DNA of 63,715 nt from a virus. Its lineage: Duplodnaviria; Caudoviricetes. Location of the stretch: the IMG/VR virus record IMGVR_UViG_3300025030_000014, positions 1-63,715 of that record. One strand, given 5' to 3'. The notes beneath the pieces are model-generated. The model saw nothing but the letters and a program-made list of their open reading frames with translations. It was not told the DNA's origin and did no database searches. Of the stretch, positions 8,822 through 28,209 are shown piece after piece (position 1 is the first letter of the stretch; the number at the start of each line of letters is the position of its first letter). The position numbers and the translations under genes are program-made.

Positions 8822-9187
8822 TAACTCTTTCACTCTGTACTATGATCTTCTTTCGTAGTACAGATTAAAGGAGTTAGTAAAAATGAGTGAGTGTTTTCGA
8901 AACGCTGCGCGATGCTGATTTGGGGGAGCGTAGGCGAGACTATAGGGGAGAAGAGAAGGGCTGTCAGAATGGCGCACAGAGCTTCTGAGCTATGGTTTCT
9001 AAATCCCTCTTTCTTCTTTCTTGCACGTAGGTCGCTTTCTAGTGGTCATGCCAAGTTTGAGGACAAAAGCATTATAATTTCTCTGCCTATTTTCTGTGCA
9101 AATCTTTGGCACGAATCTTGTCATTGAAGTTAGCTTCTAGAGTTGTATAGCGCTTGAAGATCAATACTATATCTTGTATGTAAGTGA

Positions 9188-9377
9188 GTGAGTGCATAAG
9201 TGAGTGTGATAGTATGAAAGGGGTCTATAGACAGAAAAGAAGAAAGAAAGAGGAGGAAAGAGATATAGATATACTAGAAAAAAAATATTAAAATTAATTA
9301 ATGTATATGTCCTCCTTTCTCTTCTTCTTTCTCTACCAAGGGGGTCTGTATACTATCACACTCACACACGCACTCAC
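9188..9377. repeat. Long imperfect palindrome around an AT-rich core (candidate replication origin)
   Basis: Arms 9188-9215 and 9350-9377 are inverted repeats (24/28). The inner purine-rich and pyrimidine-rich arms flank an almost pure A/T centre (about 9279-9302). Confidence 0.6.
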
Positions 9378-22252: not shown

Positions 22253-22409
22253 GGGACAAACAGATTAGAGCCTTTCGGACAATTTCCCCAAAGCAATCTA
22301 ATCATTTTGCCCACCTTTTAATGCTTTTGCCCCTTGTGTGAGTGAGCGTTTTGCTGTACTATTACTTTACCGGCAAAACATCAACTCTAACCTCAAGGAG
22401 CTACCCCGA

Positions 22410-22814
22410 ATGAAAAGCTTTAAAGACTCTGTTGGCGCACGTGTAGATAACAAAGTAGAAGTCCTCGCTACGTTTGACTTCTATGAAGTGGAGACTACTG
22501 AAGAAGCTATTACCCTCTTTGGTGAGGCTTCTGTCGTAGCCCTCATCAATCGCTCTTACATCCAAGGTCAGCAGAACCTTGCACGTGAAGCTTGTAAAAA
22601 AGACGGCGAAGGCAAGAAGAGTGAAGGGGAGATCCAGACCCTTATTACTAACTACAAGCCTGGGGCTTCTGTCACTCGCTTCAGTATCAAGAACTACCTC
22701 GCTCTCTTCAATGCCGCTGTTGAAGCTGAGAAGTACGAGATTGCTAAAGCCGCTGCTGCTATCTACCGTGATGGCAGTCCTGAGGAAGCTTTCAACTTCC
22801 TGCTGGAGAACTAA
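22410..22814 (+). CDS. Hypothetical protein
   Basis: AAGGAG RBS before ATG 22410; codon usage resembles that of the capsid gene. Confidence 0.7.
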   Translation: MKSFKDSVGARVDNKVEVLATFDFYEVETTEEAITLFGEASVVALINRSYIQGQQNLAREACKKDGEGKKSEGEIQTLITNYKPGASVTRFSIKNYLALFNAAVEAEKYEIAKAAAAIYRDGSPEEAFNFLLEN

Positions 22815-22873
22815 TCCTCTAGGGTTAGTAACCAGCTCGACCTAACTCTCCTCTCGCTTGAGTTACTAACCTA

Positions 22874-22913
22874 GGCGGGTAGTAAGAATCTTTGCCGGTA
22901 CTTACTACCCGCC
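22874..22913 (+). terminator. Terminator-like hairpin
   Basis: 13-bp stem GGCGGGTAGTAAG/CTTACTACCCGCC; weak U-tail. Confidence 0.5.
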
Positions 22914-22988
22914 GAAATTTAGAAATAAAAGTGAGTGAGTGAGTGAATGTTTCAAATGTTCCACCTAGTACAACTCAGGGATACAAGT

Positions 22989-23569
22989 AAATAGTTCTTT
23001 ATCCCTGTAGAAGCACAGCTTGCCCACCTATGAAAATGAGAGAGTGACAACGAGTGCCACTTAGCGATACTGATAGACGCGGTGAAGGGTGCACAAGCTA
23101 ATCTCTCAAGGGAAACCCGTATGGTGAATCTCCTCAAAGTCGGCGAAAGCTTCTAGTAGAGACTGAAATCCCTTCCTACAGCGTAAGCCTAGAGAAGGTC
23201 AGTAGAGTCATTCTGGTCGAAATCCAGCTGCTATGCCCACGCCGAGCGAAGCCCCCTTGTAAAATAGGTGTGAATCCTACATGACAAACAATCCGTTATA
23301 TGCGGAAAAGGGGAACGTGTAGAGACTAGACGGGGAGGAGTTAAGGAAGTAAAAGGCGCACTCAAGAAGAGTGTCAGCCTAGCTGGAATAATGCTACTTC
23401 TAAGCTCAAGGCATAGTCCAGACTACAAACACTATGTGAAGACAGGGATTCGACACAAGAGTATTGAATAGGAATATAAAGTAGGCTAGTCCGAAACAGA
23501 AACCTTAGTAGACTCAACTGTGGCTCGGCGTGTTGGTTAGCTAGTGACAGCGAAAGCTGTAGTGGTAAG
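22989..23569 (+). ncRNA. ORF-less group I intron/ribozyme (IC3-like); 5' boundary inferred
   Basis: P3 CTCCTC(23130)/GGGGAG(23332); P AAAGTCGGCGAA; Q GCCGAGCGAAGC; R GTGTAGAGACTAGACGG (23317); S AAGGCATAGTCC (23408); P9.0 GACTAC/GTGGT; GNRA hairpin ACAGC-GAAA-GCTGT; terminal GTGGTAAG with omega-G at 23569. Confidence 0.85.
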
Positions 23570-23667
23570 AGTGGTAACTCAATGAACGGTGGTTCAATGA
23601 CGGGGTTATACTCCCCTAGGAGTTCACCAGACCAGCACCTCAGTGGTATATCAGGGGTAGCTATTAC

Positions 23668-23743
23668 AAGGGCGAATGTTCCAAGGTTGGCGAACGAGTC
23701 TCCAAAACTTGTTGGCTAGGTTCGATTCCTAGCGTCCTTGCCA
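23668..23743 (+). tRNA. tRNA-Trp (CCA)
   Basis: 76 nt: acceptor AAGGGCG/CGTCCTT, anticodon arm CGAGT-CTCCAAA-ACTTG, T-arm CTAGG-TTCGATT-CCTAG, G73 and encoded CCA. Confidence 0.9.
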
Positions 23744-24018
23744 TTATTCTAAGCACCTTCAACCCACTCTGGTAACACATCTCTCTCCTCCATAGAAGAC
23801 CCTCCGCTTCTGTGCTAACTCTTACCAGAGTGGATTTAAGAGGCTTAGCAGCACATCTTACAATCAAAAGGAGATCTACATGAGCAACATTCTACGCAAG
23901 ATCGAACGTACACAGAAGTGGCTAATCACAGGCTCTAGGAAGTTCACCAAAGCCTACAAGGATGCACGTTACAATGGTAAGCTTAAAGAATACTTCGCTC
24001 AGTATAGGAGTGTATAAC

Positions 24019-24180
24019 ATGACTAACGACGTAGAAATTCCAGAGCAGCAACGTATCAGAGATGCTGAGTCCAAGAAACGCTTTGGCAATAGCAAGTACA
24101 CTCCTCATCAATCTACCAAAGAGAAATCCCGTAGGCTCAAGCAACTAGCTTCTGGTAAGCTTACCTTCAAGGGAGCTTAA
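24019..24180 (+). CDS. Small basic hypothetical protein
   Basis: AGGAG RBS; SKYTPHQ..KE..RR.KQ motif. Confidence 0.6.
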   Translation: MTNDVEIPEQQRIRDAESKKRFGNSKYTPHQSTKEKSRRLKQLASGKLTFKGA

Positions 24181-24184
24181 CCTC

Positions 24185-24616
24185 ATGGCCCTACGATGGT
24201 CGCTCACAGAAGGAGCGTATAACAAATACGCCCACTTCTTTAACAAAGATCTACCAATAGAAATCCCTGCTAACTCCCCTGTAGCCACAGCTTCTCATCT
24301 CCGAGACATTATAAAATGGGCTCATCTTAACAAGCGCAAAGGAGGAGAGTTATACGGGAAAGTTAGAGTCTCTCCGCAAGAAGGGAACTTGGTAAAGATC
24401 ATTCCTCTTGTCTCTGTTAATGCTAACCTACCTACACATAATATCTTCGAGCTTATGTGTCTGCTAGGTGATGAAGCTCTCCCCCACGGCTACAAAGCTC
24501 ACGTCTCAGATGGAATAGAAGCAGTCCTAGCCATGCAAGATGGTTTCCCACAATACAACTTCATCCCTCTCCATGCGGATATTATGGAGTTTCAGAAAGT
24601 AGGAGGATTGTTATGA
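24185..24616 (+). CDS. Hypothetical protein
   Basis: Packed ORF with GGAG RBS. Confidence 0.65.
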   Translation: MALRWSLTEGAYNKYAHFFNKDLPIEIPANSPVATASHLRDIIKWAHLNKRKGGELYGKVRVSPQEGNLVKIIPLVSVNANLPTHNIFELMCLLGDEALPHGYKAHVSDGIEAVLAMQDGFPQYNFIPLHADIMEFQKVGGLL

Positions 24617-24972
24617 GTCAGGATTTTAGCACAGCGAAGGTAGGGGATAAGGTTTGGACGATAGCTGATGGTGATAGTGCAATTAATTCACTAGACCCAA
24701 AAGATAAGCTTTGTATTAAAGTAGGGGAGTATTGGTATACTAAAGATGGCAAGATTGGTGAGCTAGATAAAATGCAATCCCTCTTCTGGTCTAACCCAAA
24801 CATCATAGCTCCTGAGAAGCCGAAGAAGGTAGTGAAGCATGAAGTTCTTATTCCAACATCATTAACTATTAGTAGCACACAAGATAGAAGTTTGATAGTA
24901 TCCTTTAATTCTTTACGTATTCCAGATACAATAAACATTAAAGCTATTCTTTACTATGAAACTCTGGAGTAG
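24613..24972 (+). CDS. Hypothetical protein (AKVGDKVW, SH3-like)
   Basis: FSTAKVGDKVW...YTKDGK...SLFW pattern. Confidence 0.65.
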   Translation: MSQDFSTAKVGDKVWTIADGDSAINSLDPKDKLCIKVGEYWYTKDGKIGELDKMQSLFWSNPNIIAPEKPKKVVKHEVLIPTSLTISSTQDRSLIVSFNSLRIPDTINIKAILYYETLE

Positions 24973-24978
24973 CTCTAC

Positions 24979-25263
24979 ATGAATTATGCAGACTTATTTC
25001 CTAAACCTATTACAGAATGCACCGATGAAGAAATCATAGCACGAGCTATGGAACTCCGAGAAAAGAACGCTCTACCCAAATTCTCCTCCATCGGTAAAGC
25101 ACCTAAACTAGCAAAGGAGAAAGTAGCTAAAACTCCTGTGCTCTCCAAAGCAGAGCTTGCCATGCAGTCCATTCTAGAATCCGCAATGGCTAAGAAAGCT
25201 GCAAAGGATTCCACTAATGAGAAAGAAGATAGTAGTAACCCTAGCACTGATCTTCCTAGCTAG
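24979..25263 (+). CDS. Hypothetical protein
   Basis: Packed ORF. Confidence 0.55.
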   Translation: MNYADLFPKPITECTDEEIIARAMELREKNALPKFSSIGKAPKLAKEKVAKTPVLSKAELAMQSILESAMAKKAAKDSTNEKEDSSNPSTDLPS

Positions 25264-25720
25264 TGTAAGTGCAGTCTTTTATCTAAAGGTGAAAAGAGTA
25301 GCGAAAGAGCTTGTTCCTGTAACCATCATCGAGATTGACCCTAACCTCAAGTCTCTTAACTGGCTGACTACGTTCTTTCAAAAGCATAACATCCAGAATG
25401 CAGATGAGTTAGCCCTAGCTCTACTCCTAGCACCAGCTGCCTATCGTGAAGTCCTTGCAGCAATAGCTGTGCAGGAAGGGACTCATGGAGATACTACAGT
25501 GGTGGGAAGAGCAGGGGAAAAGGGGATCTTCCAAGTACGGGAGAAATACTGGGGCAAAGTCCCACGAGACATAGCAGGGCAAGTGCTCCAAGCCTCGTAT
25601 ATCTACGCTTCTCTACACAAGATACATGGTTCTGAGTATCGAGCAGTCAAGGCTTACAACGGAAGCGGGTATAAAGCCCAACAATATGCTTATGCAGTTC
25701 TAGCGATGAAAGGGGAGTGA
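25217..25720 (+). CDS. Membrane-anchored lytic transglycosylase (SLT-like)
   Basis: N-terminal TM; LAAIAVQE (catalytic E), GEKGIFQV and AVKAYNG lysozyme-fold motifs. Confidence 0.75.
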   Translation: MRKKIVVTLALIFLASVSAVFYLKVKRVAKELVPVTIIEIDPNLKSLNWLTTFFQKHNIQNADELALALLLAPAAYREVLAAIAVQEGTHGDTTVVGRAGEKGIFQVREKYWGKVPRDIAGQVLQASYIYASLHKIHGSEYRAVKAYNGSGYKAQQYAYAVLAMKGE

Positions 25721-26021
25721 GATGAACCTAGATTATAAAACAGTAGCAAGTTGGTGTGTAGTAGCTCTATTACTTGGCTTCTTCATGCAAATCGGTAACA
25801 AGATGGCTGAGAATGTCTGGCCTGACAAGCCTATCCAGATTATAGATATTACGGAAGTGGAGTAGTCTTTATGCTAATCGTAATCGACCCTATCCGTAAG
25901 CTCTACAAACGCTTTGTCGGACATACCTGCACTCACAAGGCAGAGGCAGATACTCACTTAACAGCAGGAGAAGTAGAACAGTTCCGAGTCAATCCTAATA
26001 GTGCAATAGTGGAGGAATCAG

Positions 26022-26243
26022 ATGCCCCTAAAGCCTCGTAAGGTAAAACGAGTAGTCTCTCCCATCGAACTAGCTCGCCGCGAATGGTGTTCCCGTAACT
26101 TCCGCATAGCAGGTCTACTAGCCAACATCGACCAAATTGCCTCTGAGCTTAGAGTAGATGCTGGGAGATATAAGGCTTCAGTAGAAGTGCTGAGGGACTT
26201 TAACAACTCCTGGGGTAAGGCTCAGGGGATTAAGATTGGGTAG
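26022..26243 (+). CDS. Hypothetical protein
   Basis: GGAGG RBS. Confidence 0.55.
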   Translation: MPLKPRKVKRVVSPIELARREWCSRNFRIAGLLANIDQIASELRVDAGRYKASVEVLRDFNNSWGKAQGIKIG

Positions 26244-26250
26244 GAGTTCT

Positions 26251-27138
26251 ATGGAAGATTACTCAGCAGCAAATCTAAAGGTTAGACAATCTCTTCCTTT
26301 AGAAGCAAAGGTAAACTTTGCAAGATCACGAATCATAGATTGGTATGAACGTAACTCAGGAGATGTTTATATTTCCTTTTCTGGAGGTAAGGATAGTACT
26401 GTACTTCTACATCTTGTACGTTCTATCTATCCAAACGTACCTGCTGTATTTGCTAACACTGGACTTGAGTACCCAGAAATTGTAGAATTTGTTTCTACAA
26501 TAGAGAATGTAATAACAATTAGACCAAAAATGTCTTTCAAGTCTGTTATAGAAACTTACGGCTACCCAGTAATCAGCAAGGAACAAGCACAATACATTGG
26601 AGAGTACCAAACTACAAAATCAGCAGATCTAAAGTTTACTCGTAAGTATGGTAACTCTTCTGGCCGAGGCAAGATAAGTAACAAGTGGTTCTTTATGACT
26701 ACAGCACCTTTTAAGATTTCTCATAAGTGTTGTGACAAGTTAAAGAAAGAGCCATTTAAGATTTACGAAAAAGCTACTAAGCAAACTCCATACATAGGTA
26801 CAATGGCTTGCGACAGTGGCTTACGTTTCCAGTCTTATATCAAGTATGGATGCAATACCTTTAAAACTGTTAGGGCTTCAAGTCGTCCATTAAGTGTATG
26901 GCTAGAAGAAGATATTTGGGAGTATATTAAGCAGCATAATCTACCATATTGCTCAGTGTATGATAAAGGAATAGAAAGAACTGGTTGCATATTCTGCTTA
27001 TTTGGTATTGGACTTACAAAACAGAATGCAATAAGTTACTTGAAAGTCTATCATCCAAACTTATATGAATACTGTATGAGTCAGTTAGGTATGCGAGAGG
27101 TATTAGATTTTATGCAAATTAAAGAGAGTACTCTATAA
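26251..27138 (+). CDS. PAPS-reductase-family (PP-loop, Fe-S) protein
   Basis: SFSGGKDS PP-loop, NTGLEYPE, CC..LKK, RTGCIFC; ATG 26251 after AGGAG. Confidence 0.9.
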   Translation: MEDYSAANLKVRQSLPLEAKVNFARSRIIDWYERNSGDVYISFSGGKDSTVLLHLVRSIYPNVPAVFANTGLEYPEIVEFVSTIENVITIRPKMSFKSVIETYGYPVISKEQAQYIGEYQTTKSADLKFTRKYGNSSGRGKISNKWFFMTTAPFKISHKCCDKLKKEPFKIYEKATKQTPYIGTMACDSGLRFQSYIKYGCNTFKTVRASSRPLSVWLEEDIWEYIKQHNLPYCSVYDKGIERTGCIFCLFGIGLTKQNAISYLKVYHPNLYEYCMSQLGMREVLDFMQIKESTL

Positions 27139-27965
27139 TGATTCTTCAAAGTTCACAACTCTCATGTTTCTATGAGTGCCCCAGGAAGTGGGTGTATCAA
27201 TATGGGCGAATGCGAACACGTCCTCCCTCTATGGCAATGGAAGCTGGTTCTACTTTCCACAATCTCTGTGAAAACCACCTGAAGAAAGGAATACCATTAG
27301 AGAGCTTATATGATAGTCTTGATGAGAATAGGCAAGAATTCTATGAAGTAATCTTCCCAGTCTTTCTAGGCTGGCTCAAAAAGGACGAGAAATCTGGCTA
27401 CATAACCCACACTATCAACGGAGAGAAGGCTATTGAAGTAGAGTTCTCAATCCAACTCTCTCCCAACGTAGAATACAGAGGAAAGGTAGATCGCATTGCA
27501 GAGAAAAGTGGCTCACTCTACTTCCTTGACTGGAAATACACCTCTAGCTATCTAAGCGACTCCTTCTTCAACAAATTCGAGATTAGCCCACAGGTACTTA
27601 GTTACTCTTACCTCGGCAAGACTGTATTCCCTGGACTAGATGGTTTCATCATCGACGCTGCTTCTCGTACCAAATCCGGCACTGTAGCCTACGAAAAACG
27701 CTACTTCCCACTACTCCCTGTAATGGATGAGTTTATGGGTGAGGTGCTGGCTATTGCTGAGTTTATGGAAGAGAATCTAGACAACGAAGAAGCTTTCTTC
27801 CACAATCGTTGTAGTTGTATGACGAAGTATAATAGTAGATGTTTGTTCTATGATGTGTGTCTTACGAAGCCTAGTAGTAGAGAGAGGATTCTTATGTCCG
27901 ATCTCTATGTCACCAACCAGCTCATTTATGACGAGGAGAAGAAGCCTGATGCAATTTCCTGTTAG
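27138..27965 (+). CDS. PD-(D/E)XK (Cas4/RecB-like) exonuclease
   Basis: SSQLSCFYECPRKW, GSTFH, GKVDRI, LDWK and C-terminal C..C..C. Confidence 0.85.
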   Translation: MILQSSQLSCFYECPRKWVYQYGRMRTRPPSMAMEAGSTFHNLCENHLKKGIPLESLYDSLDENRQEFYEVIFPVFLGWLKKDEKSGYITHTINGEKAIEVEFSIQLSPNVEYRGKVDRIAEKSGSLYFLDWKYTSSYLSDSFFNKFEISPQVLSYSYLGKTVFPGLDGFIIDAASRTKSGTVAYEKRYFPLLPVMDEFMGEVLAIAEFMEENLDNEEAFFHNRCSCMTKYNSRCLFYDVCLTKPSSRERILMSDLYVTNQLIYDEEKKPDAISC

Positions 27966-28209
27966 TCCAGAGAACGTAGCTCGACTTATTGAGCTAAAGA
28001 AACAGCAAGAAGTAATTGACAAGATGATGGTTATGTTCATGGATAACTTTGAAGCAAAGCTCTACGCACTGTCTACTGAAGAAGGCACTATCTGGGATAG
28101 TATTTGTGTGGAGCATGATCTTGACGTTGTGACTCATCACTGGACTATCAAGACCCTGGATGATGGAAGTACAGTGGTAGTGAGTAGTCCGAAAGGAGGG
28201 TTGCAGTAA
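27949..28209 (+). CDS. Hypothetical protein
   Basis: Packed ORF. Confidence 0.55.
   Translation: MQFPVSPENVARLIELKKQQEVIDKMMVMFMDNFEAKLYALSTEEGTIWDSICVEHDLDVVTHHWTIKTLDDGSTVVVSSPKGGLQ

What the first reader, a model, noticed from the sequence alone, without database searches (positions are those of the whole stretch)
22943..23629. The ribozyme's flanks can pair into a structured exon RNA, and a hairpin competes with the predicted 5' splice site
Seen: candidate P1 is CAAGT(22984-22988)/GCTTG(23018-23022) with the required U.G pair, followed by P2 CACCTATG/CGTATGGTG. CAGGGATA(22976)/TATCCCTG(23000) forms a hairpin with that splice site in its loop. The 5' flank CCTA-GTACAACTC (22964-22976) can pair with the 3' flank GGGTTATAC...TAGG (23603-23620), and GTGAAT with GTTCAC. 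The 3' flank also offers a T-arm-like GGGG-TTATACT-CCCC and ends in ACCA (23626-23629). Known: anti-splice-site stems control the c-di-GMP-II-gated group I intron of C. difficile. Inference: splicing may be switchable and may yield a roughly 100-nt rod or tRNA-like ncRNA.
Basis: inference. Interest (0 to 1): 0.7.

Follow-up and report, generated by a model that had tools for sequence, protein, structure and literature searches.

The report
Phage group I intron without tRNA
A self-splicing-type RNA enzyme of the kind that normally interrupts tRNA genes sits here in non-coding DNA of an uncultured groundwater phage; one hairpin beside it is conserved in a relative, but the proposed splicing switch and structured exon RNA are not supported.

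Summary
The ribozyme is real. It is a subgroup IC3 group I intron of the family that usually sits in tRNA-Leu(UAA) anticodon loops. It matches 98 of 103 family-invariant intron columns and scores 44.9 bits with a model of the family's 3' half. The family's 3'-terminal signature places the last intron base (omega-G) at 23569, so the intron is 22989-23569 (581 nt) with five large peripheral insertions. The exons are neither a tRNA, a tmRNA nor a plausible ORF. The hairpin 22976-23007 is real and recurs, with a different stem and the same loop, in the one syntenic relative found (L127). That relative has no ribozyme, so the hairpin did not evolve only to gate splicing. The flank pairing, the "T-arm" and the ACCA end do not exceed chance: ligated exons fold with z = 0.03, and 375 of 500 shuffles give an exon-exon duplex at least as good. 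ACCA lies at the start of the conserved tRNA-Trp leader. No ligand-binding aptamer was found. Verdict: an unusual, ornate group I intron in a non-coding spacer. The switch and the exon RNA remain conjecture.

The parts
22875..22912 (+). Hairpin H1 after the upstream gene. It has a 13-bp stem, and its loop is identical in L127 while the stem differs.
   Evidence: Sequence. One search shows an exact match at 22885-22902 in a relative's contig. One search aligns it with L127 476-514.
22931..22949 (+). (GUGA)n repeat, block 'a', conserved in L127 (530-544).
22913..22988 (+). Predicted 5' exon. It is non-coding and not tRNA-like.
22976..23007 (+). Hairpin 'c': stem 22976-83/23000-07, loop CAAGUAAAUAGUUCUU. 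It spans the predicted 5' splice site.
   Evidence: Minimum-energy folds (-11.6 kcal/mol). Homologous to L127 about 740-798: score 42 against shuffles 21.9 +/- 3.7, maximum 35. L127 fold.
22984..22988 (+). P1 5' strand CAAGU. The predicted 5' splice site follows U22988.
   Evidence: the only candidate of 4 with four Watson-Crick pairs plus U.G. Family layout.
22989..23569 (+). Predicted group I (IC3) intron, 581 nt.
23018..23022 (+). Internal guide sequence GCUUG (P1 3' strand). CAC at 23014-16 could form a 3-bp P10 with GUG at 23571-73.
   Evidence: Read. The layout guide sequence - 2 to 3 nt - P2 matches alignment A4.
23026..23127 (+). P2 (23026-33/23119-27) with an 85-nt insertion. The insertion includes a GGGAAACC hairpin at 23110-17.
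   Evidence: The alignment starts at the P2 3' end. The match of 23110-17 to the family's P2 GAAA loop is weak (-0.3 bits).
23130..23135 (+). P3 5' strand CUCCUC. It pairs within 23332-23340.
   Evidence: plus reading.
23139..23246 (+). P4 (23139-45/23240-46) and P5, with a 79-nt insertion.
   Evidence: alignment to model R2 positions 46-111.
23247..23316 (+). The GCGAAG joining segment and P6, with an insertion.
23317..23333 (+). J6/7-P7-J7/3 core, GUGUAGAGACUAGACGG, 17 of 17 identical to the family.
23341..23405 (+). P8 with a 47-nt insertion. The family's tetraloop-receptor-like bases are altered here.
   Evidence: column 25 C>U.
23406..23419 (+). J8/7 and the P7 3' strand, UCAAGGCAUAGUCC.
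23422..23426 (+). P9 5' strand ACUAC. It pairs with GUGGU at 23562-66.
   Evidence: Helix 4. Compensatory variants seen by reading the listing.
23430..23546 (+). P9a stem (23430-34/23542-46) enclosing module 'b' (23435-23541).
   Evidence: score 51 against 27.2 +/- 4.1 for L127 602-696; consensus fold; about 94% identical copy in other flanks.
23547..23560 (+). P9b hairpin ACAGC-GAAA-GCUGU.
   Evidence: model R1 positions 77-90, 6.5 bits, E 0.03.
23552..23569 (+). Family 3'-terminal signature GAAAGCUGUAGUGGUAAG. The last intron base (omega-G) is G23569.
   Evidence: 1 match in the window, 0 in 100 shuffles; 66 of 86 family introns end this way.
23570..23630 (+). Predicted 3' exon. It starts with AGUGGUAAC, a tandem copy of the intron's last 9 nt. 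It also holds hairpin UCAAUGAAC-GGUG-GUUCAAUGA, hairpin GGGG-UUAUACU-CCCC, and ACCA.
23631..23667 (+). Conserved leader upstream of tRNA-Trp.
   Evidence: 87% identity over 131 columns with L127, leader plus tRNA..
23668..23743 (+). tRNA-Trp (CCA).

Best explanation
The interval holds a 581-nt subgroup IC3 group I intron (22989-23569). It derives from the family that normally interrupts tRNA anticodon loops, mostly tRNA-Leu(UAA). Here it lies in a non-coding spacer, between a hairpin-terminated upstream gene and tRNA-Trp, in a complete 63.7-kb groundwater phage genome.

Inferred mechanism: the spacer is transcribed. CAAGU (22984-88) pairs with the guide GCUUG (23018-22) to form P1 with U22988.G23018. 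Free guanosine attacks after U22988. G23569 then enters the P7 pocket and the exons are joined as ...ACAAGU|AGUGGU.... This leaves a roughly 160-nt leader that RNase P would cut from tRNA-Trp.

The intron carries five peripheral insertions (P2, P5, P6, P8, P9a) and no endonuclease gene. The hairpin 22976-23007 is an independently conserved module whose loop happens to supply the P1 strand. It must open, or form a pseudoknot, for P1 to form. That can slow splicing, but nothing shows it works as a regulated switch.

The intron is most simply a passenger in a transcribed, dispensable spacer, because a relative lacks it. Shown here: family membership of the core, the core's intactness, and the conserved modules. 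Inferred: both splice sites, activity, and transcription.
For: - Rfam Intron_gpI matches 23082-23438 at E 2.7e-5.
- The 17-nt core motif occurs at 121 sites in 119 viral contigs. Of these, 86 of 121 lie inside ARAGORN tRNAs split in the anticodon loop.
- Family structure is supported by covariation: alignment A3 has 97.2% of cells paired, A4 has 92.5%, and 0 of 500 shuffles reach the covariation score in either.
- Model R1 of the family's 3' half hits window 23317-23478 at 44.9 bits, E 9e-11.
- Model R2, run on the sub-region, aligns P3-P4-P5-P4' at 23124-23259 with a 79-nt insertion.
- Family-invariant columns: 50 of 58 (A3) and 49 of 56 (A4) are matched. Ten of the 15 misses are in the exon or guide sequence, so 98 of 103 intron columns match.
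- The 3' end: 66 of 86 family introns end TAGTGGTA[ACT]G. The signature occurs once in the window, at 23552-69, with 0 expected, and in 61 other loci.
- P1: the family shows U.G in 31 of 31 sequences, with the guide sequence 2 nt before P2. The window has the same layout. CAAGU is the best of 4 candidates.
- L127 is collinear over 22395-28209 but gives no hit with R1, R2 or Rfam.
Against: - The Rfam score is 30 bits, below the gathering score of 50. There is no hit at gathering thresholds.
- R2 scores only 21.9 bits on the whole window and does not align P1 or P2.
- R1's own optimal alignment ends at 23478, not 23569. The 23569 end rests on the signature match and on P9b.
- The P1 loop is 29 nt, against about 13 in the family.
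- P10 is only 3 bp and offset by one base.
- There is no exon-exon stem next to the splice sites, unlike the anticodon stem of this family's normal hosts.
- The first 19 intron bases are homologous to non-intron sequence in L127. This fits a ribozyme cassette joined downstream of the hairpin, with a fortuitous P1.
- A strict CAAGU within about 100 nt is expected roughly 0.1 times by chance (my arithmetic).
- There are no RNA data.
Confidence: 0.5

Rival explanations
1. A captured or stranded ribozyme. A cassette (about 23008-23625) holding an IC3 intron without its native 5' exon and P1 strand replaced other DNA between hairpin c and the tRNA-Trp leader. The CAAGU match is fortuitous. The RNA either does not splice, or uses another 5' site (for example C23014 in the mini-hairpin AAGC-ACA-GCUU, or UGAGU in the repeat), or only hydrolyses at its 3' end.
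For: - L127 has two unrelated ORFs exactly between hairpin c and the leader.
- Hairpin c, including the bases that would be the intron's first 19 nt, is conserved as one unit without a ribozyme.
- The P1 loop is 29 nt against about 13 in the family.
- The guide sequence can fold locally with AAGC at 23011-14 (minimum-energy fold).
- There are three alternative UGAGU sites.
Against: - 98 of 103 invariant intron columns are intact. This argues against long disuse.
- CAAGU gives the only P1 with four Watson-Crick pairs plus the canonical U.G.
- The alternatives lack U.G or rely on three wobble pairs.
Confidence: 0.27
2. The hairpin is an anti-splice-site device that makes splicing switchable, as in the c-di-GMP-II-gated ribozyme of C. 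difficile.
For: - The hairpin (-11.6 kcal/mol) holds the splice site in its loop.
- In a nested model, forcing P1 raises the energy of 22960-23035 from -14.4 to -8.7 kcal/mol.
- The hairpin is conserved in L127.
Against: - The hairpin shares no base with P1, so a pseudoknot is topologically possible.
- The hairpin is kept in L127, where there is no ribozyme to gate.
- No aptamer or riboswitch family matched at E <= 10 in 22400-24100.
- There is no gene whose ribosome binding site or start codon would be created by splicing. The next feature downstream is a tRNA.
Confidence: 0.1
3. The ligated exons form a functional roughly 100-nt rod or tRNA-like RNA ending in ACCA, or are a decayed tRNA.
For: - The minimum-energy fold of the 106-nt ligated form closes with GUGAAU/GUUCAC and has three arms.
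- L127 can form GUGGUUGG/CCUACCAC at the equivalent place, with two positions changed on both sides (read).
- A GGGG-UUAUACU-CCCC hairpin precedes ACCA.
Against: - z = 0.03 and +0.82.
- Exon-exon duplex: 375 of 500 shuffles are at least as good.
- No tRNA in 4930 trial joins, nor at the exact junction down to a 60% threshold on the + strand.
- No Rfam hit at E <= 10.
- Best similarity to 46 family tRNA 3' exons is reached by 57 of 200 shuffles. For the 5' exon it is 200 of 200.
- The 3' exon is not conserved in L127.
- In L127 the putative closing stem would enclose 855 nt containing two ORFs.
Confidence: 0.05
4. The intron interrupts a small protein gene: ATG at 22947 gives 14 codons, joined in frame to 50 codons from 23570.
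For: The junction 22988|23570 keeps the frame of ORF 23582-23719 (and reading).
Against: - The frame runs 52 nt into tRNA-Trp.
- L127 has a 1-nt insertion inside the conserved leader, which would shift the frame.
- There is no convincing ribosome binding site.
- L127 has no homologous ORF.
Confidence: 0.02

Closest known systems
Group I (IC3) introns in tRNA-Leu(UAA) anticodon loops of cyanobacteria, plastids and other bacteria. The layout is CUU/a...g/AAAA as written in Williams 2020, bioRxiv 10.1101/2020.01.27.920355 (part 1 of the text read). Here the family is also seen in 86 of 121 sites in viral contigs.
   Same: Same core sequence and helices P3-P9. Same J6/7-P7 17-mer. Same P9/P9b with a GAAA loop and the same ...UAGUGGUAAG 3' end. 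The guide sequence lies directly before P2, and there is a U.G pair at position -1.
   Different: Not in a tRNA. 581 nt against about 200 nt. Five insertions. A 29-nt P1 loop. No anticodon-stem-like exon pairing. The P8 receptor-like bases are altered.
Azoarcus pre-tRNA-Ile IC3 intron (recalled from general knowledge; only its title seen in search listings).
   Same: Same subgroup, and the same tetraloop-bearing P2 and P9 design.
   Different: Azoarcus is minimal (about 205 nt, recalled) and lies in a tRNA. This one is ornate and lies in a spacer.
c-di-GMP-II-gated allosteric group I ribozyme in a 5' UTR of Clostridioides difficile (passage in Hausner et al. 2014, PMC3984707).
   Same: A group I ribozyme in non-coding RNA. 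Alternative pairing near the 5' splice site is conceivable.
   Different: No aptamer was found. There is no downstream ORF whose ribosome binding site would be affected. The hairpin exists without the ribozyme in a relative.
Group I introns in the T-loop of tmRNA genes (Williams 2020: 343 genes reported).
   Same: A tRNA-family intron in a non-tRNA small-RNA gene. The exon here ends in ACCA after a hairpin.
   Different: No tmRNA call by ARAGORN or Rfam. The 5' exon is only about 75 nt.
Phage group I introns in protein genes. These include about 12 of the 35 family sites in viral contigs that lack a tRNA call and share one coding-like 3' exon.
   Same: They show that this intron family also moves to non-tRNA sites in phages.
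   Different: Those lie in ORFs. This one has no credible ORF on either side.

Membership tests
Group I intron (Rfam RF00028) | Reaches Rfam's gathering score | tested here: not met
   30 bits against 50; E 2.7e-5. No hit at gathering thresholds. The shortfall is explained by large insertions.
Group I intron (Rfam RF00028) | Conserved catalytic core (P3-P8, the P7 pocket, J6/7, J8/7) | tested here: met
   R1 scores 44.9 bits, E 9e-11. 98 of 103 family-invariant intron columns match. The core motif is 17 of 17 identical.
Group I intron (Rfam RF00028) | P1 with U.G at the 5' splice site, formed with a guide sequence just upstream of P2 | tested here: met
   CAAGU 22984-88 pairs with GCUUG 23018-22, followed by CCC and then P2. 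This is the best of 4 candidates. The evidence is sequence only.
Group I intron (Rfam RF00028) | Omega-G at the 3' end | tested here: met
   The family signature ends at G23569.
Group I intron (Rfam RF00028) | Self-splicing activity | not testable with these tools
   No RNA run holds the stretch.
IC3 introns of tRNA anticodon loops | Lies in a tRNA anticodon loop | tested here: not met
   ARAGORN allowing introns, 4930 trial joins, the exact join, and the shuffle test.
IC3 introns of tRNA anticodon loops | Exon-exon pairing (the anticodon stem) next to the splice sites. This requirement is known to me only from the title of Zaug et al. 1993 in Hausner's reference list. | tested here: not met
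   No complementarity adjacent to 22988/23570 on reading. The duplex test shows no excess.
IC3 introns of tRNA anticodon loops | P10 between the 3' exon and the guide sequence | tested here: inconclusive
   Only GUG 23571-73 with CAC 23014-16, offset by one unpaired A.
IC3 introns of tRNA anticodon loops | GAAA tetraloops on P2 and P9b | tested here: met
   P9b at 23547-60. GGGAAACC at 23110-17 is a weak match.
Allosteric (riboswitch-gated) group I ribozyme | Ligand aptamer adjacent to the ribozyme | tested here: not met
   No riboswitch family at E <= 10 in 22400-24100.
Allosteric (riboswitch-gated) group I ribozyme | Mutually exclusive pairings that select the splice site | tested here: inconclusive
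   Hairpin against P1 costs 5.7 kcal/mol in a nested model. They share no bases, and the hairpin is also present without a ribozyme.
tRNA / tmRNA (for the exon product) | Recognised by ARAGORN or by Rfam tRNA or tmRNA models | tested here: not met

The most novel reading that the evidence does not exclude
The spacer is a functional non-coding RNA locus built from portable structured modules, and the tRNA-type ribozyme has been domesticated within it. Hairpin c, with its conserved 14-16-nt loop, would present or withhold the 5' splice site. Module b is a roughly 110-nt domain whose two conserved motifs pair with each other. It would be a new mobile or autonomous RNA domain able to live in an intron's P9a loop (this phage), free in a spacer (L127), or in a stand-alone hairpin (the contig from run X6). 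Splicing would then control the release or the fold of these modules, or the maturation of tRNA-Trp.
Probability: 0.1. Interest if true: 0.7.

Novelty: new variant of a known kind. Interest (0 to 1): 0.4.

Why it matters
Introns of this tRNA-type family are textbook examples of elements tied to one insertion site, the anticodon loop. This copy has an almost fully intact core but no tRNA, no ORF and no homing endonuclease around it. A close relative lacks it. Together they offer a natural case for asking two questions: how such ribozymes reach and survive at ectopic, non-essential sites, and whether a new 5' exon can be recruited through a 5-nt guide match. It also flags two small conserved RNA modules (b and c) of unknown function in an uncultured phage lineage. 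For annotation, it shows that Rfam's general group I model misses ornate members, and that a family-specific terminal signature fixes the 3' boundary.

Tried and rejected
tRNA in the exons:
- ARAGORN allowing introns found only tRNA-Trp on 22801-23800.
- At lowered thresholds it returned only junk calls inside the intron.
- 4930 joins of every 5' end 22945-23029 with every G at 23425-23639 gave 0 tRNAs at a 95% threshold.
- The exact join gave only a complement-strand junk call at thresholds of 70% or lower.

tmRNA idea (a GGAUUCGAC-like motif in module b, and the ACCA end):
- No ARAGORN or Rfam support.

Decayed-tRNA idea:
- Single alignments looked suggestive.
- They failed a control that takes the best score over all 46 exons: 57 of 200 shuffles reach it.

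Coding exons: rejected, as described under the rivals.

Promoter or terminator in the spacer or leader:
- The scans listed nothing at the leader or at H1.
- My own reading of an extended -10 at 23644-52 is not supported by the tool, and I have dropped it.

Search for relatives:
- Phage collection by blastn: none.
- Upstream protein and the downstream-protein alignment in viral contigs: none.
- Relatives of the PAPS reductase, L121-L124: no intron and no tRNA.
- tRNA-Trp 21-mer: two unrelated tRNA-array phages.
- Module b patterns in viral contigs and genome contigs: none.
- Hairpin c pattern in viral contigs: 7 hits, all without a hairpin context, so I judge them chance.
- The loop motif AGTAAATAGYTCTT occurs 5 times in the window at 2 or fewer mismatches, against 1.85 expected. 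The other sites are inside or antisense to ORFs.
- Closest cultured phages have under 32% DNA polymerase identity, so no host can be inferred.

Other checks:
- Nothing complementary to the conserved loops of H1 or c was found in the window or L127.
- L127 segments S1 and S3 have no significant similarity to the window.
- MAFFT/RNAalifold on hairpin c misaligned the stems and is uninformative.
- Thermodynamic z-scores of the flanks with the intron ends are -0.51 and -0.32, so uninformative.

Sequencing runs: no RNA holder was listed. The laid runs are DNA contigs only.

The family data moved it to 23569.

Tools and papers:
- A find in PMC13168695 returned no passages.
- Papers seen: Williams 2020, part 1 of the whole text. 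Hausner 2014, passages only. All others, search listings only.
Full report
**Setting.** The window is a complete 63,715-bp viral record with direct terminal repeats. It is held by groundwater metagenome runs. Its DNA polymerase is under 32% identical to that of any cultured phage. The finding lies in a spacer between a 158-aa ORF ending at 22814 and tRNA-Trp at 23668-23743.

**The ribozyme.** At gathering thresholds Rfam reports nothing. A permissive scan gives Intron_gpI at 23082-23438 with 30 bits, against a gathering score of 50, E 2.7e-5.

Of 121 motif sites, 86 lie inside tRNA genes that ARAGORN calls as split in the anticodon loop, mostly tRNA-Leu(UAA). This matches the classical CUU/a...g/AAAA arrangement described by Williams 2020.

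I aligned 30 and 31 distinct tRNA-Leu introns in two halves, giving alignments A3 and A4. The hand-drawn helices are well supported: 97.2% and 92.5% of cells are paired, 10 and 14 pairs change on both sides, and 0 of 500 shuffles reach the covariation score.

- The 3'-half model R1 hits the window at 44.9 bits, E 9e-11.
- The 5'-half model R2 gives 21.9 bits on the whole window.
- On the sub-region, R2 aligns P3, P4, P5 and P4' correctly across a 79-nt insertion.
- With the insertion tips left out, the window matches 50 of 58 and 49 of 56 family-invariant columns. Ten of the 15 misses are exon or guide-sequence positions, which must differ. So 98 of 103 intron columns agree.

This is an intact IC3 core, not a decayed relic.

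**Boundaries.** 66 of 86 family introns end TAGTGGTA[ACT]G. It is preceded by a GAAA-capped hairpin, and by a stem ACCAC/GUGGU that shows compensatory variants on my reading of the listing. The window carries GAAAGCUGUAGUGGUAAG once, at 23552-69, with 0 matches in 100 shuffles. The P9b hairpin at 23547-60 aligns to the model. ACUAC (23422-26) can pair with GUGGU (23562-66). Omega-G is therefore G23569.

R1's own optimal alignment stops at 23478, because it cannot bridge the 107-nt insertion in P9a. This is a weakness of the automatic evidence.

At the 5' end, the family places a 4-nt guide sequence 2 nt before P2, with U.G in 31 of 31 sequences. CAAGU at 22984 is the only one of 4 upstream candidates with four Watson-Crick pairs plus U.G.

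It has no ORF of 40 aa or more on its strand. P10 is weak, at 3 bp. The intron's last 9 nt are repeated at the start of the 3' exon (AGUGGUAAG|AGUGGUAAC).

**The exons.**
- No tRNA or tmRNA is found, either in 4930 trial joins or at the exact join.
- No Rfam family matches 23425-23640 at E <= 10.
- Ligated exons fold no better than shuffles, z = 0.03 and +0.82.
- The best exon-exon duplex is equalled by 375 of 500 shuffles.
- Likeness to family tRNA exons is not significant: 57 of 200 shuffles for the 3' exon, 200 of 200 for the 5' exon.
- An in-frame 64-codon reading across the junction runs into tRNA-Trp and is broken by a 1-nt insertion in the relative.

**The one relative.** A 22-mer from the tRNA leader retrieved metagenome contig L127. 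It is collinear with 22395-28209, and its flanking proteins are 47% and 51% identical. It has neither an Rfam group I match (E <= 1) nor an R1 or R2 hit (E <= 10). A contig with the same spacing occurs in run X3.

L127 shares these parts with the window:
- Hairpin H1, with an identical loop and a different stem.
- The (GUGA)n block.
- The tRNA-Trp leader and the tRNA.
- Hairpin c with its 5' flank: score 42 against 21.9 +/- 3.7.
- Module b: score 51 against 27.2 +/- 4.1.

The order differs. In L127 it is a-b-c followed by two ORFs. Here it is a-c-core(b). In L127, hairpin c has an 11+3-bp stem of different sequence around the same loop, AGUAAAUAG(C/U)UCUU.

Module b lies here in the P9a loop (23435-23541). 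Its two conserved motifs pair with each other, and the closing stem changes on both sides. A 198-nt contig from an unrelated freshwater run holds 23435-23549 with 6 differences and one gap, in different flanks. So b behaves as a portable domain, which removes the apparent permutation.

The 3' exon has no counterpart in L127. ACCA (23626-29) is the first copy of a duplicated ACCAG at the start of the conserved leader.

- The hairpin is real and conserved, but it is kept where there is no ribozyme. Gating therefore cannot be its only role.
- It shares no base with P1. A nested model puts a 5.7 kcal/mol price on P1, but a pseudoknot is possible.
- No aptamer is present.
- The rod or tRNA-like exon RNA is unsupported.
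- One hint remains. GUGAAU/GUUCAC corresponds to GUGGUUGG/CCUACCAC in L127, with two double changes. There it would enclose 855 nt with two ORFs, and two sequences prove little.

**Rival worth keeping.** Hairpin c, including the would-be first 19 intron bases, is one conserved unit. L127 carries unrelated ORFs exactly between c and the leader. The ribozyme may therefore have arrived as a cassette without its native 5' exon, which would make CAAGU a lucky match. The intact core argues for recent arrival or continued use.

**Verdict.** This is an ornate IC3 group I intron of the tRNA-intron family stranded in a non-coding phage spacer. It is a new variant of a known kind. The interpretation as a switch yielding a structured exon RNA does not.

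Noticed in passing
window 23435-23541; L127 602-696: Module b is a roughly 110-nt domain. Its two conserved motifs (ACAGGGAUUCGACA and UGGCUCGRCGUGUUGGU) pair with each other around a variable middle. It occurs in three contexts: in the intron's P9a loop, free in a spacer, and in other flanks in a 198-nt contig from an unrelated freshwater run. It matches no Rfam family.
   Followed up: partly
window 22875-22912; L127 476-514: Hairpin H1 after the upstream gene. An 18-nt loop region is identical in both phages, while the 13-bp stems differ completely. This is the same pattern seen in hairpin c.
   Followed up: partly
window 23561-23578: Tandem repeat AGUGGUAAG|AGUGGUAAC straddling the predicted 3' splice site. 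The second copy has C where omega-G would be.
   Followed up: no
window 9180-9377: A second (GUGA)n-like block (GTAAGTGAGTGAGTG) and its inverted counterpart flank a long purine-rich / pyrimidine-rich palindrome around an AT-rich centre. It might be a replication origin or a recombination site.
   Followed up: no
loci L002-L120: 86 of 121 IC3 core-motif sites in viral contigs lie in split tRNA genes, mostly tRNA-Leu(UAA), and six of those have introns of 677-699 nt. About 12 of the 35 remaining sites share one coding-like 3' exon, so the same intron family also sits in a phage protein gene.
   Followed up: partly
L127 835-1334 and 1525-1597: The relative carries two ORFs, of 115 and 43 aa, with no homologue in the window. 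The first gives a weak, sub-threshold Terminase_6N match (E 0.053). These ORFs occupy the place where the window has the ribozyme. L127 also has a second tRNA (anticodon UAU) after tRNA-Trp.
   Followed up: partly
L124 2891-3115: An RT-2 RNA (Rfam RF03077, 76.9 bits) lies in an unrelated viral contig that was fetched through the PAPS reductase.
   Followed up: no
window 23631-23667: The 37-nt leader before tRNA-Trp is conserved about as well as the tRNA itself. The consensus scan found no promoter there.
   Followed up: partly
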